IMG/VR virus record: IMGVR_UViG_3300027749_000091
Strand: one strand, 5' to 3'
Length of the DNA: 20,000 nt
From: an uncultured virus (IMG/VR IMGVR_UViG_3300027749_000091)
Lineage: Duplodnaviria > Heunggongvirae > Uroviricota > Caudoviricetes
Positions 5,529 to 7,717 of this stretch are shown one piece after another. The notes under the pieces were generated by a model. It searched no databases and was not told where the DNA came from. It worked only from the letters and a program-made list of their open reading frames with translations. Position 1 is the stretch's first letter, and every line of letters begins with the position of its first letter. The position numbers and the translations under genes are program-made.

Positions 5529-5786
5529 TTAACATTTCCATCGAGCTAGACTAGCCGCTTTACGAGTAGGTCTACCCTTCTCGTCTTTCATTGGACCGGG
5601 CATACCAGACATACGTGCGCAGAATGATTTCTTCCTAGCACCACCTTCGGGCTGTGGAGCCTTTAGGTTAGATCCAGTAGCGGCGTTATACTTTGCACGG
5701 CCTTTGGCAGTTAGCCCAGCCCCCTTAGATACAGGAAGCTTTTCACCACGACCTATTGCTAGAGAGGGGCCTTTTTTCTTAGCCAT
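5529..5786 (-). CDS. Conserved small basic phage protein (resembles DUF6321, from memory)
   Basis: 85 aa; GLTAKGRAKYN, RKKSFCARMSG, LARWKC end. Confidence 0.65.
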   Translation of the reverse strand: MAKKKGPSLAIGRGEKLPVSKGAGLTAKGRAKYNAATGSNLKAPQPEGGARKKSFCARMSGMPGPMKDEKGRPTRKAASLARWKC

Positions 5787-6093: not shown

Positions 6094-6109
6094 GGGGGAC
6101 AAATCCCCC
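6094..6109 (-). other. Intergenic hairpin GGGGGA-N4-TCCCCC
   Basis: 6-bp stem with 4-nt loop between two genes; no U-tract follows on the minus strand, so more likely a stability/pause element than a terminator. Confidence 0.5.
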
Positions 6110-6117
6110 TAGATTAA

Positions 6118-6627
6118 TTAAACGTTTTGCTGACCATTGTCCGCAACGTAGTAACGAATAGATCCAGTAACTGGACCACCAACAGCACCAGCAGTACCAA
6201 TAGCAGAAGTAACAATAAATAAGTTGGTTGCATTAGCAACGTTACCTAAAGAAGCGCCTGCGCCTGTACTGCCTAGAGTAATTGCTTGGCGGGTTGTTAC
6301 GTTACCATTTAATACAAATGCGCCGGGAACGTTAGTACCTAGAACAATTGGTTGTCCGGGGCCGCCACCACTAATTGGGGTAAACCCTATGTTACAGGTA
6401 GAATTAGCGCCTGTAGATGGGGTAGCAATATTAACAGCCAATACAACAGTGTTAGCTGGCAGAATAATTGGGGCCGTATTGGTAGCTGAAACCACTACGT
6501 TTGCGGTAGTAGAAGATGTGTTAGCGATATAAAACTGGGCAACCATGTCCATCGAACCAGCATAAGCTGTACGAGTTTGGTCACCACCTGTTGAACGCCA
6601 TAAAGCTGAGGTAGTTGCTAAAGTCAT
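6118..6627 (-). CDS. Putative capsid-associated/decoration protein
   Basis: Thr/Ala/Gly/Val-rich beta protein; start placed at ATG 6627, downstream of AAGGA. Confidence 0.65.
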   Translation of the reverse strand: MTLATTSALWRSTGGDQTRTAYAGSMDMVAQFYIANTSSTTANVVVSATNTAPIILPANTVVLAVNIATPSTGANSTCNIGFTPISGGGPGQPIVLGTNVPGAFVLNGNVTTRQAITLGSTGAGASLGNVANATNLFIVTSAIGTAGAVGGPVTGSIRYYVADNGQQNV

Positions 6628-6641
6628 GATAAATTGTCCTT

Positions 6642-6709
6642 GCATATAAGATCAGCTTATCAATCAATATGCTGTCTGCCGGGACAGTTTGATAAGCCGG
6701 TTTTCCCGG
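6642..6709 (-). ncRNA. Structured, probably pseudoknotted 5' leader RNA (candidate Polynucleobacter-1-like motif)
   Basis: 9-bp perfect stem (6655-6663/6689-6697) plus crossing 6-bp pairings 6679-6684/6704-6709 and 6642-6647/6667-6672. Family assignment is from memory only. Confidence 0.6.
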
Positions 6710-6717
6710 TTTATACG

Positions 6718-6745
6718 ATCATACTACATTTTAAATTTTGTGCAA
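6718..6745 (-). promoter_or_regulatory. Sigma70-type promoter TTGCAC-N16-TATGAT
   Basis: Lies between the capsid terminator and the structured leader; predicted start about 6711. Confidence 0.6.
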
Positions 6746-6753
6746 GTATTTAC

Positions 6754-6786
6754 AAAAGAAAAACCCCGCCTTTTGAGCGGGGTCTT
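6754..6786 (-). terminator. Rho-independent terminator after major capsid gene
   Basis: Minus strand ACCCCGC-TCAAAAG-GCGGGGT followed by TTTTCTTTT. Confidence 0.85.
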
Positions 6787-6808
6787 CGTAAGTCTTATAT
6801 AAGACTAA

Positions 6809-7717
6809 TTAAGCACCAGCAGATCCAAACATACCAAGAGGATCAGACCAGCCAAAGCTATAACGCTCACGTGACTTGTAGCGGACATTGCCCGTGTCGA
6901 AGTCGCCGTCCATTGACTGAGCCAAAGGCGAGCGCACAAAGTGCTTCATACCGTTTGGAACGTCCGTGGTCAAGAACCAACCATTGGTGTCGGTCAAGAA
7001 ATGGTTAATGGTGTAACCTTCCGAAACAGAACCGTTGTTCTTAATTGCGTTGATATCATTGTCGTTTGTACCAACACGCAATTCAGTTTCGAGCAAGCGA
7101 GTTGCAACGAATTGGAGTGCAGGAGGAACAATCAACTTCTTAGGTTTGGAAGCAATTAACAAACCACGCTCATCCGTCCACAAGCTAATTTGAATAACGG
7201 CGGCTTCTAAAGAAGTCTCGTTTAAGTCAGCAGGGGTTGAAGGAATGTTGCTGTTAACACCGCCGTTTACCAATGGGTGTGATGCGCTGAATAAAGGAAC
7301 GCCGTCGCCACCGTTATAGCCAGTAGTGAAACCGTTGTTTAATACAGCAGCAGCTTTAACCTGTTTGGTATAAGCCATAGCACGAGCTAAGGACTTGGTG
7401 TAGCGAGCTGATAAAGAATCATAGAGGTTATCTTCGATTGCTTCTTCAGTTAAGCTAAAGCCAAGGGCAATAGTTTCGTGGTTGTAGCGAGCTGTCCATG
7501 CTTCTTGAGCATTGTCATAAGCGATGGCAGAACCTTCGTTTTTAACAGGTGCAGCAGAAAAGCCAGAAAGCTTTGTTTCTTCTTCGAAAGAACGCTCTGA
7601 GGTCTCAGTTTCGTAGATCTCTTTGTGTTCTTCACCGTAGCGAGCATACTCTAAACCGAACAATGCATTCAGTCCGGGGAGCAACTCTTTCAGTAGTTGT
7701 GCGCGTGAAATAGCCAT
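6809..7717 (-). CDS. Major capsid protein (HK97 fold, Mu gpT-like family)
   Basis: 302 aa; MAISRAQLLKELLPGLNALFGLEY, TEEAIEDNLY, GGDGVPLFSASHP, PKKLIVPPAL, RERYSFGWSDP; followed by a terminator; AGGAG RBS. Confidence 0.92.
   Translation of the reverse strand: MAISRAQLLKELLPGLNALFGLEYARYGEEHKEIYETETSERSFEEETKLSGFSAAPVKNEGSAIAYDNAQEAWTARYNHETIALGFSLTEEAIEDNLYDSLSARYTKSLARAMAYTKQVKAAAVLNNGFTTGYNGGDGVPLFSASHPLVNGGVNSNIPSTPADLNETSLEAAVIQISLWTDERGLLIASKPKKLIVPPALQFVATRLLETELRVGTNDNDINAIKNNGSVSEGYTINHFLTDTNGWFLTTDVPNGMKHFVRSPLAQSMDGDFDTGNVRYKSRERYSFGWSDPLGMFGSAGA

What the first reader, a model, noticed from the sequence alone, without database searches (positions are those of the whole stretch)
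6642..6709. Doubly pseudoknotted RNA leader between an internal promoter and a virion gene RBS
Seen (minus-strand RNA): CCGGGA-AAACCG-GCUUAUCAA-A-CUG-UCCCGG-CAG-ACA-GCAUAU-UGA-UUGAUAAGC-UGAUCUU-AUAUGC-AAGGA. A 9-bp stem encloses a small hairpin whose loop UCCCGG pairs with the 5' CCGGGA, and an internal GCAUAU pairs with AUAUGC directly adjoining the Shine-Dalgarno. An alternative CUGUC/GACAG pairing offers a second fold. It has its own sigma70-like promoter just after the capsid terminator. Inference: a cis-regulatory switch or protein-binding RNA that tunes downstream virion protein levels. It resembles my recollection of the functionally uncharacterised Polynucleobacter-1 motif, which is unverified.
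Basis: partly seen in the sequence, partly recalled or inferred. Interest (0 to 1): 0.72.

Follow-up and report, generated by a model that had tools for sequence, protein, structure and literature searches.

The report
Double-pseudoknot leader RNA of phage cement gene
The flagged 68 bases are a real, strongly conserved knotted RNA fold at the very start of the messenger RNA for a capsid cement protein, found in a very abundant group of freshwater and marine phages and matching no catalogued RNA family; what it does is still unproven.

Summary
Observation confirmed. All four pairings are at 6709..6642 (minus strand). Across about 80 distinct relatives each helix keeps pairing through compensatory changes: 88.5% of cells paired against 67% shuffled and 24-39% slid, and 22 of 24 pairs change on both sides. 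Cross-checks and an element-anchored replicate agree.

The fold starts about 8-9 nt after a conserved -10 box, so it is the 5' end of the transcript. Its last helix abuts the Shine-Dalgarno sequence. It occurs once per genome, after the major capsid gene in 55 of 58 element-anchored loci. It precedes a hypervariable gene that looks like a capsid cement protein.

It is present in cultured Pelagibacter phage HTVC023P and Phage DSL-LC04. A weak model match with four helices read by eye lies in HTVC027P.

Rfam 15 gives no match, so Polynucleobacter-1 is rejected.

Best reading (about 0.4): a constitutive cis-acting expression module that buries the mRNA 5' end and presents the ribosome-binding site. 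Near-identical RNAs precede unrelated downstream proteins, which argues against autoregulation by the product. A protein-bound operator, a riboswitch and an xrRNA-like exonuclease block remain open.

The parts
6809..7717 (-). Major capsid protein gene (302 aa)
   Evidence: phrog_371 major head protein at 7e-21. Pfam Phage_capsid_4 at 8e-14. More than 601 relatives in IMG/VR.
6753..6787 (-). Intrinsic terminator after the capsid gene: 12-bp stem, loop, T tract
   Evidence: Terminator scan, stem 6787-6759 followed by T-rich tail. Equivalent G+C-rich hairpins with T tracts are seen in the relatives' upstream regions.
6718..6745 (-). Promoter-like region: TTGCAC (6745-6740), 16-nt spacer, TATGAT (6723-6718)
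   Evidence: Read. A -10-type hexamer lies 8-9 nt upstream of helix a in 43 of the 76 relatives where a TANNNT hexamer was found, out of 90 examined. Many have TTGACA or TTGCA at -35. Not listed by the consensus scan because the -35 matches at 3 of 6. The transcription start is inferred, not mapped.
6704..6709 (-). Helix a, 5' strand (CCGGGA): the predicted first nucleotides of the transcript
   Evidence: Pairs with 6679-6684. Five pairs are supported with changes on both sides, such as CCGGG/CCCGG to CUGGG/CCCAG, CUAGG/CCUAG, CCAGG/CCUGG and CCGAG/CUCGG.
6698..6703 (-). Linker between helices a and b (AAACCG)
   Evidence: Length 4-8 nt in 76 of 88 distinct relatives. It can pair with helix a mainly in the CCGGG clade.
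6689..6697 (-). Helix b, 5' strand (GCUUAUCAA)
   Evidence: 9 of 9 pairs change on both sides. 97.5% paired when fitted and 90.8% when not fitted.
6676..6688 (-). Junction A (6688), then hairpin c: CUG 6687-6685, loop UCCCGG 6684-6679 (the 3' strand of helix a), CAG 6678-6676
   Evidence: Helix c is 100% and 98.3% paired, with CUG/CAG exchanged for CAG/CUG or CCG/CGG. The single A between b and c is present in 58 of 88.
6667..6675 (-). Junction ACA (6675-6673) and helix d 5' strand GCAUAU (6672-6667)
   Evidence: Helix d: 6 of 6 pairs change on both sides, 95% paired. The junction is ACG in 45 of 88.
6655..6666 (-). Junction UGA (6666-6664) and helix b 3' strand UUGAUAAGC (6663-6655)
   Evidence: The junction ends in A in most relatives.
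6642..6654 (-). Loop UGAUCUU (6654-6648) and helix d 3' strand AUAUGC (6647-6642)
   Evidence: The loop ends in UCUU or ACUU in 36 of 88. Pairing.
6625..6641 (-). Shine-Dalgarno AAGGA (6641-6637), 9-nt spacer, start codon ATG (6627-6625)
   Evidence: The Shine-Dalgarno sequence begins directly after helix d in 53 of 88 distinct relatives, and within -3 to +1 nt in 70 of 88.
6118..6627 (-). 169-aa gene, probably a capsid cement (decoration) protein
   Evidence: No Pfam or PHROG family. AlphaFold2 model with a 24-row alignment: pLDDT 64, pTM 0.63. Best solved-structure matches are small chains of phage capsid entries and phage cement proteins: 8h89_J, 7eel_H, 7dn2_1, 7dou_4, E 6e-3 to 0.18, so weak. 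The syntenic gene of Phage DSL-LC04 is annotated 'cement protein'.
6094..6109 (-). G+C hairpin GGGGG-AUUUGU-CCCCC just after the stop codon of the 169-aa gene
   Evidence: Read. Not listed by the terminator scan. Its function is inferred only.

Best explanation
The element is a cis-acting 5' leader. I read it as a constitutive expression module for the capsid cement gene.

Shown:
- It is a compact RNA of about 70 nt with four covarying helices in the order a, b, c, a', c', d, b', d'.
- It lies a fixed 8-9 nt downstream of a -10-type box.
- It ends at the Shine-Dalgarno sequence.
- It occurs once per genome, after the major capsid gene and its terminator.
- It is exchanged independently of the protein it precedes.

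Inferred:
- Transcription starts 0-2 nt before helix a, so the 5' nucleotides are immediately tucked into the loop of hairpin c.
- This hides the 5' end from 5'-end-dependent decay (pyrophosphohydrolase RppH with RNase E, or RNase J).
- Helices b and d stack into one rod. The Shine-Dalgarno sequence hangs single-stranded from the end of that rod, where its duplex with the 3' end of 16S rRNA could stack on helix d.
- The result would be a long-lived, efficiently translated message. Its output would not depend on which of the many cement-gene alleles recombination has placed downstream, so cement protein could be made in amounts close to the capsid protein.
For: Structure: covariation in all four helices, each also supported in an alignment not fitted to it.

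Position at the 5' end: the -10 hexamer lies 8-9 nt from helix a in 43 of 76 relatives with a hexamer found. The promoter stays attached to the element even where about 1 kb is inserted after the capsid gene.

Link to translation: the Shine-Dalgarno sequence starts 0 nt after helix d in 53 of 88, and lies outside the fold.

A generic rather than product-specific role: 26 of 60 RNA pairs at 90% identity or more precede proteins in different BLASTP clusters. 333 pairs below 60% RNA identity precede the same cluster.

Context:
- One copy in each of 5 of 5 virus records, including 3 of 3 that are at least 90% complete.
- A capsid gene upstream in 55 of 58 element-anchored loci.
- The downstream gene looks like a cement protein, which is needed in high copy number.

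Expression: in HTVC027P the gene behind the element (gp62) has 2.4 times the mRNA of the gene before it and 3 times that of the gene after it at the last time point. It exceeds the capsid mRNA at the fifth of the seven time points, 9 hpi by the listed sampling times (Table S3 of PMC12753301, seen). In HTVC027P the element is a weak model match (16.7 bits, E 0.008) plus four helices read by eye.

That base-paired 5' termini protect bacterial mRNAs is established knowledge recalled here (ompA 5' hairpin, RppH and RNase E requirements), not a call.
Against: - No 5' end, half-life or translation measurement exists for this RNA. The transcription start is inferred from promoter geometry alone.
- A single 5' hairpin would be enough to protect an end, so the elaborate and strictly conserved double knot and its conserved junction nucleotides (A; ACG; A; A/UCUU) suggest something more specific.
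- Predicted accessibility of the Shine-Dalgarno sequence is no better in the knotted state than in nested folds: median 0.475 for both, 78 sequences.
- The higher gp62 mRNA could come from the promoter alone.
- In 18 of 88 distinct relatives no Shine-Dalgarno sequence starts within -3 to +1 nt of helix d: it starts 2-5 nt downstream in 13, and none was found in 5.
Confidence: 0.4

Rival explanations
1. Translational operator. A phage or host protein (for example unassembled capsid or cement protein through a conserved part, or a ribosomal protein) binds the knot beside the Shine-Dalgarno sequence. It blocks or traps the 30S subunit, coupling cement-protein synthesis to capsid assembly.
For: A complex, conserved fold with invariant junction nucleotides directly abuts the ribosome-binding site. 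The downstream proteins share a short N-terminal motif across most types. Precedents recalled from the literature, not from a call: the T4 gene 32 leader pseudoknot, the S4 and S15 leader pseudoknots, and P22 scaffold autoregulation.
Against: Near-identical RNAs precede unrelated proteins and divergent RNAs precede the same protein. The RNA therefore does not co-vary with its product. The Shine-Dalgarno sequence and start codon lie outside the fold, unlike the S4 and S15 sites. No candidate RNA-binding protein was identified.
Confidence: 0.25
2. Exonuclease-resistant or end-shielding knot, working like an xrRNA. The two pseudoknots close a ring around the RNA's own 5' end, and this mechanically blocks a 5'-to-3' exonuclease (RNase J) or the 5'-end sensors.
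For: The arc pattern is: 5' strand pairs inside the main helix, and an internal strand pairs just 3' of that helix. As I recall it, flavivirus xrRNA has the same pattern. The fold begins at the predicted transcript start. An RNase J C-terminal domain above the cut-off is present in the Pelagibacter MAG that holds a related contig.
Against: There is no three-way junction, and no Rfam family matched the window or its relatives. The two betaproteobacterial MAGs tested lack the RNase J domain, and the freshwater hosts are unknown. The resemblance in topology is recalled, not computed.
Confidence: 0.13
3. Riboswitch or other ligand- or temperature-sensing switch that alternates between the knot and a fold that hides the ribosome-binding site.
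For: In the window the nested minimum-energy fold pairs UGUCC of the a' region with GGACA of the Shine-Dalgarno region. A helix a:linker hairpin of 4 bp or more is possible in 55% of relatives, against 35% in cross-pairings.
Against: Neither alternative is conserved family-wide. Predicted Shine-Dalgarno accessibility is equal in both states. The gene controlled is a structural protein in every case. No known riboswitch class matches.
Confidence: 0.07
4. Transcription-level element such as a put-like antiterminator, or a self-cleaving ribozyme.
For: It lies immediately after a promoter at the head of the late structural genes. Small ribozymes are common in phages (recalled).
Against: In HTVC027P, mRNA drops about 3-fold after the first downstream gene, so there is no sign of enhanced read-through. 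No ribozyme family matches. In an HDV-type fold the partner of the 5' strand follows the small hairpin; here it lies in the hairpin's loop. The tight junction with the Shine-Dalgarno sequence points to translation.
Confidence: 0.05

Closest known systems
5'-terminal stabiliser structures of bacterial and phage mRNAs (ompA 5' hairpin, phage T7 gene 10 leader); recalled, no call
   Same: A structure at the extreme 5' end of a highly expressed message, followed by an exposed strong ribosome-binding site. In T7 the gene is also a capsid gene.
   Different: Those are simple hairpins. This is a four-helix double pseudoknot with conserved junction nucleotides and a fixed junction to the Shine-Dalgarno sequence. 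No sequence relationship is known.
Flavivirus exoribonuclease-resistant RNA (xrRNA); topology recalled, no call
   Same: The 5' strand pairs with a segment enclosed by the main helix. A second enclosed segment pairs just downstream of that helix. Both sit at the 5' edge of the protected RNA.
   Different: No three-way junction here. The partner of the 5' strand is a hairpin loop. The host is a bacterium and the RNA is an mRNA leader rather than a 3' UTR. No Rfam family matched. Resistance is untested.
Phage T4 gene 32 autoregulatory leader pseudoknot (mentioned in PMC10690425, passages read)
   Same: A pseudoknot near the 5' end of a phage mRNA leader, upstream of the ribosome-binding site.
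   Different: T4's is a single H-type knot followed by an unstructured stretch that the gene's own single-strand-binding product coats. Here the knot abuts the Shine-Dalgarno sequence, the product looks like a cement protein, and the RNA is exchanged independently of the product.
E. coli ribosomal-protein leader pseudoknots (S4 alpha operon, S15 rpsO); recalled, no call
   Same: Complex pseudoknots in an mRNA leader that act at translation initiation.
   Different: Those include the Shine-Dalgarno sequence or start codon and are bound by the encoded ribosomal protein. Here both signals lie outside the fold.
Polynucleobacter-1 RNA motif (RF01718; table entry in PMC2864571)
   Same: Freshwater origin and a presumed cis-regulatory position.
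   Different: The covariance model does not match the window or 20 diverse relatives.
Candidate structured RNAs upstream of phage structural genes (GP20-a and GP20-b in Rfam; the 8,495 IMG/VR candidates of Fremin et al. 2023, PMC10690425)
   Same: Covariation-supported motifs within 25 nt upstream of phage genes, taken from the same data source.
   Different: GP20-a and GP20-b did not match. Whether this element is one of the unnamed candidates could not be checked. The archives mmc4.zip and mmc5.zip could not be unpacked, mmc1.pdf, mmc2.zip and mmc3.pdf could not be read, and the readable tables gave no hit for its words.

Membership tests
Polynucleobacter-1 (RF01718) | Match to the Rfam covariance model at its gathering score | tested here: not met
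   No match in the whole window. None at E up to 10 in 6500-6900. None in 20 diverse relatives.
Any Rfam 15 family (4,227 models, including riboswitches, ribozymes, xrRNAs, GP20-a and GP20-b) | Match at the gathering score over the element | tested here: not met
   Searches gave 0 matches. In one search the minus-strand matches lie on the capsid terminator and its flanks, none on the element. A few weak plus-strand (antisense) matches overlap the element's coordinates at 9-17 bits, far below their gathering scores.
Flavivirus-type xrRNA | Three-way junction whose core pairs with the 5' end | tested here: not met
   The main helix b encloses one hairpin (c) and a single strand (d), not two hairpins.
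Flavivirus-type xrRNA | Two pseudoknots crossing the two strands of the main helix | tested here: met
   Helix a crosses the 5' strand of b, and helix d crosses the 3' strand of b. Both covary.
Flavivirus-type xrRNA | Halts a 5'-to-3' exoribonuclease | not testable with these tools
   Needs an enzyme assay. Only the presence of an RNase J domain in one candidate host lineage was seen.
T4 gene 32-type autoregulatory leader | The encoded protein is the RNA's ligand, so RNA and protein stay together | tested here: not met
   26 of 60 near-identical RNA pairs precede unrelated proteins.
T4 gene 32-type autoregulatory leader | Unstructured spacer between the knot and the ribosome-binding site | tested here: not met
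   The Shine-Dalgarno sequence starts 0 nt after helix d in 53 of 88.
Riboswitch | Conserved alternative fold (expression platform) that hides the Shine-Dalgarno sequence or forms a terminator | tested here: not met
   The alternatives are confined to one clade. Accessibility is equal in both states.
Riboswitch | Binds a small ligand | not testable with these tools
   Needs in-line probing or calorimetry.
HDV-like ribozyme | The partner of the 5' strand follows the 3-bp helix (P1 after P3); P4 hairpin; catalytic C | tested here: not met
   The partner lies inside the loop of the 3-bp helix. No Rfam family matched.
Phage capsid cement or decoration protein (the downstream gene) | Fold like solved cement proteins; gene next to the capsid gene | tested here: inconclusive
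   Foldseek top matches 8h89_J, 7eel_H, 7dn2_1 and 7dou_4 have TM 0.32-0.43 and E 6e-3 to 0.18, from a model of pLDDT 64. Synteny and the 'cement protein' annotation in DSL-LC04 agree.

The most novel reading that the evidence does not exclude
This is a bacteriophage counterpart of the exonuclease-resistant RNAs of eukaryotic viruses. It would be a self-closing double pseudoknot that rings its own 5' end, making late mRNA immune to the host's 5'-end-dependent decay machinery (RNase J, or RppH with RNase E). It would be carried by one of the most abundant phage lineages in oceans and lakes.
Probability: 0.13. Interest if true: 0.9.

Novelty: new variant of a known kind. Interest (0 to 1): 0.68.

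Why it matters
The kind is known: structured leaders of phage mRNAs. This architecture is not. It is a 5'-terminal double pseudoknot welded to the ribosome-binding site, it matches nothing in Rfam 15, and I found no description of it in print (searches; passage searches in PMC9599517 and a 2026 preprint).

It is very widespread:
- More than 601 capsid relatives in IMG/VR.
- More than 120 hits for one narrow pattern.

Cultured phage-host pairs carry it, so it can be tested directly. If it stabilises or boosts mRNA, it is a compact, portable expression part. If it resists exonucleases or binds a factor, it is a new RNA mechanism in bacteria. It also marks a sharp recombination boundary between a conserved capsid module and a hypervariable cement gene.

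Tried and rejected
- **Rfam**: gathering and permissive scans gave nothing on the element.
- **Earlier notes of this scan**: none by place or by sequence.
- **Fremin et al. 2023 supplements**: words from the element were absent from files 3-6. The archives mmc4.zip and mmc5.zip could not be unpacked, and mmc1.pdf, mmc2.zip and mmc3.pdf could not be read. Prior listing there stays open.
- **Nested minimum-energy fold**: it differs from the knot (z -3.6). It is not informative, because the program cannot form pseudoknots and the input included untranscribed bases.
- **Switch tests**:
  - The helix a:linker hairpin is enriched only in the CCGGG clade.
  - The CUGUC/GACAG alternative occurs in 7 of 88.
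  - Shine-Dalgarno accessibility is equal in both states.
  - The sum of helix energies beat the nested fold in 78 of 78, but that sum ignores pseudoknot loop penalties.
- **Metatranscriptomes**: only Logan contigs were available. One 178-nt contig identical to 6522-6699 lies in one lake RNA library, and low depth crosses 6662-6809 in another. DNA carry-over cannot be excluded and no ends can be read. This is no evidence for or against a start site.
- **Host**: the capsid search of genomes returned 48 phage-like contigs binned into MAGs of many phyla. Eight of them, from six MAGs, carry betaproteobacterial labels. The host is unresolved.
- **The 169-aa protein**: the single-sequence fold was useless (pLDDT 32). 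Pfam and PHROGs gave nothing for it, and little for 18 other downstream proteins.
- **Late-promoter word search in the window**: not above chance.
- **Own assembly**: not held.
- **Relatives without the element**: Roseobacter phage CRP-901 and Planktothrix phage Pag-Yong1 lack it.

Full report
**The sequence.** On the minus strand the window reads, in order:
- the end of a 302-aa major capsid gene (6809..7717; phrog_371 and Pfam Phage_capsid_4);
- a 12-bp terminator hairpin with a T tract (6787-6753);
- TTGCAC, 16 nt, TATGAT (6745-6718);
- 8 nt;
- the flagged stretch 6709-6642;
- AAGGA (6641-6637), 9 nt, and ATG 6627, which opens a 169-aa frame ending at 6118.

- helix a: CCGGGA with UCCCGG;
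- helix b: GCUUAUCAA with UUGAUAAGC;
- helix c: CUG with CAG, closing a loop that is itself the 3' strand of a;
- helix d: GCAUAU with AUAUGC.

The order is a, b, c, a', c', d, b', d'. Helix a crosses the 5' strand of b, and helix d crosses its 3' strand.

**Is it more than chance?** The capsid protein has more than 601 relatives in IMG/VR, of which 80 loci at 85-95% identity were kept. A 22-base word of the element recurs exactly in 31 further contigs. Upstream regions of the downstream gene already showed compensatory changes in every helix.

I built a covariance model holding only helices b and c. It found the element in 68 of 81 sources. On its 76-row alignment the full four-helix structure gives:
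- 88.5% paired cells, against 67.4% in shuffles (0 of 500 reach it) and 24-39% with slid partners;
- 22 of 24 pairs with changes on both sides;
- helix b 97.5%, c 100%, a 82% and d 75% paired, the last two in an alignment not fitted to them.

A second model holding only a and d gave 80 matches in 89 sources. There a pairs at 87% and d at 95%, with 12 of 12 pairs changing on both sides. The unfitted b and c pair at 90.8% and 98.3%. Each helix is therefore supported in an alignment that was not fitted to it.

The sixth pair of helix a is not conserved: 40 of 65 cells are unpaired.

**An unbiased, element-anchored check.** Of the 80 loci fetched:
- 78 pass the a+d model at E 1e-3 or better, again with 88% and 95% pairing;
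- of the 58 with at least 1,300 nt upstream, 55 have a capsid homologue upstream on the same strand (62-90% identity, 16 of them below 70%);
- 44 of those 55 lie within 150 nt of the capsid gene, and 10 lie behind an insert of more than 400 nt.

Nine of the 81 capsid-anchored sources gave no match. Of these, one is cut inside the element, and the others carry inserted or reversed genes after the terminator within the fetched range.

Near-complete virus records of 61-65 kb carry exactly one copy (3 of 3; 5 of 5 records overall).

**Spread.**
- The model also finds the element next to capsids of 59-77% identity in contigs from the genome collection (24 good matches).
- It finds it in cultured phages: Pelagibacter phage HTVC023P (53.3 bits, E 3e-11, upstream of gp41) and Phage DSL-LC04 (46.7 bits, upstream of the annotated 'cement protein').
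- HTVC027P scores weakly (16.7 bits, E 0.008), but all four helices can be read upstream of gp62.
- Roseobacter phage CRP-901 and two marine contigs carry a different leader at the same place, and Planktothrix phage Pag-Yong1 has none.

**Anatomy across the family** (88 distinct parsed sequences).
- Helix a is 5 bp in 58 sequences. The linker is 4-8 nt in 76. Helix b is 9-10 bp in 63.
- A single A separates b from c in 58.
- The 6-nt loop of c is almost wholly a'.
- The junction after c' is ACG in 45.
- Helix d is 6 bp in 57 and 8 bp in 22.
- The loop before d' ends in UCUU or ACUU in 36.
- The Shine-Dalgarno sequence starts directly after d' in 53, and within -3 to +1 nt in 70.
- Upstream, a -10-type hexamer lies 8-9 nt from helix a in 43 of the 76 cases with a hexamer (90 examined), often with TTGACA or TTGCA at -35.

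The transcript therefore most likely begins 0-2 nt before helix a. This is an inference from promoter geometry, not a measurement.

**The gene it precedes.** The 169-aa protein has no Pfam or PHROG family. A model built with 24 relatives has pLDDT 64 and pTM 0.63, and is a beta sandwich. Its best solved matches are small chains of phage capsid entries (Ralstonia phage GP4, cyanophage Pam1, Helicobacter phage KHP30) and the trimeric cement protein of KHP40. These matches are weak, with E 6e-3 to 0.18. Together with synteny and the DSL-LC04 annotation, a capsid cement or decoration protein is likely but not proven.

Downstream proteins of the family fall into 10 BLASTP clusters. Most share only a short N-terminal motif.

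The RNA and the protein are not inherited together. 26 of 60 RNA pairs at 90% identity or more precede proteins of different clusters. 333 pairs below 60% RNA identity precede the same cluster. The element thus belongs to the conserved capsid-side module, and the recombination boundary lies at its 3' edge.

**Function.** No tool here measures function, so the mechanism is inferred.
- The fixed distance from the -10 box, the pairing of the first transcribed nucleotides, the single copy per genome and the welded Shine-Dalgarno sequence point to a cis-acting module that acts on mRNA stability and translation initiation.
- Independence from the product argues against classical autoregulation.
- Published time-course data for HTVC027P (Table S3 of PMC12753301, rows seen) show gp62 mRNA at 28,568 TPM at the last point. 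The preceding gene has 11,866, the following gene 9,428 and the capsid gene 74,585.
- At the fifth of the seven time points (9 hpi by the listed sampling times) gp62 (12,786) exceeds the capsid gene (10,371).
- This fits an own promoter and/or a stabilised message, but it does not separate the two.
- In the window a G+C hairpin follows the stop codon (6109-6094). Together with the 5' knot it would frame a discrete, abundant message.

Switch-like behaviour is not supported.

The arc pattern equals the one I recall for flavivirus xrRNAs. An RNase J domain is present in a Pelagibacter MAG, but not in two betaproteobacterial MAGs. This keeps an exonuclease-blocking role open at low probability.

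**Known families.** Rfam 15 gives no match at gathering thresholds in the window or in 20 diverse relatives, and none on the element at E up to 10. Polynucleobacter-1 is RF01718 (table in PMC2864571) and is not met.

Literature searches and passage searches in the HTVC023P-type genome paper and a 2026 preprint on non-coding elements found no description. The 2023 catalogue of 8,495 IMG/VR candidate RNAs (PMC10690425; abstract, passages and tables read) may contain it. The archives mmc4.zip and mmc5.zip could not be unpacked, and three further supplementary files could not be read.

**Verdict.** It is a new RNA architecture within the known kind 'structured phage mRNA leader'. It is very widespread and can be tested directly in cultured systems.

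Noticed in passing
L018:3464-4324 (+); L002:2266-2619 (-); L006, L016, L061, L131 just after the capsid terminator: In about a fifth of relatives, 0.4-1.2 kb is inserted between the capsid terminator and the leader's promoter. By eye, the inserted frames carry HNH-like or endonuclease-VII-like cysteine/histidine motifs. The site therefore looks like a hot spot for homing-endonuclease genes. They were not run through Pfam.
   Followed up: partly
L168:3296-3369 (Roseobacter phage CRP-901); L133 and L135 after the capsid gene: A different conserved leader occupies the same position before the same type of gene (…CCCUGACAG…GACAGGAG…). The model scores it at E about 1. It may be a second, unrelated structured leader.
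   Followed up: no
window 6118-6627 (-) and homologues in L001-L250: The gene after the capsid gene is hypervariable: 10 BLASTP clusters and 35-96% identity within the window's own type. The neighbouring capsid proteins stay at 85-95%. Most variants share only an N-terminal motif of the form M-A-x-T-T-F-x-G-P.
   Followed up: partly
window 6094-6109 (-): The hairpin GGGGG-AUUUGU-CCCCC lies directly after the stop codon of the 169-aa gene. It could be an attenuator or a 3' stabiliser. In HTVC027P, mRNA drops about 3-fold after the equivalent gene.
   Followed up: partly
window 5529-5786 (-): The 85-aa protein matches Pfam DUF6321 (2e-23).
   Followed up: no
L170 (G006:C22:694-3996): The Pelagibacter MAG that holds a related phage contig encodes a 566-aa frame with an RNase J C-terminal domain (43 bits, above the cut-off). 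Two betaproteobacterial MAGs gave no match.
   Followed up: partly
L136 (contig of 465,754 bases labelled Pseudomonas MAG): A capsid homologue of 73% identity lies 7.5-14 kb from the end of a long bacterial contig. This may be a prophage or an assembly chimera. It has no element and a different gene after the capsid gene.
   Followed up: no
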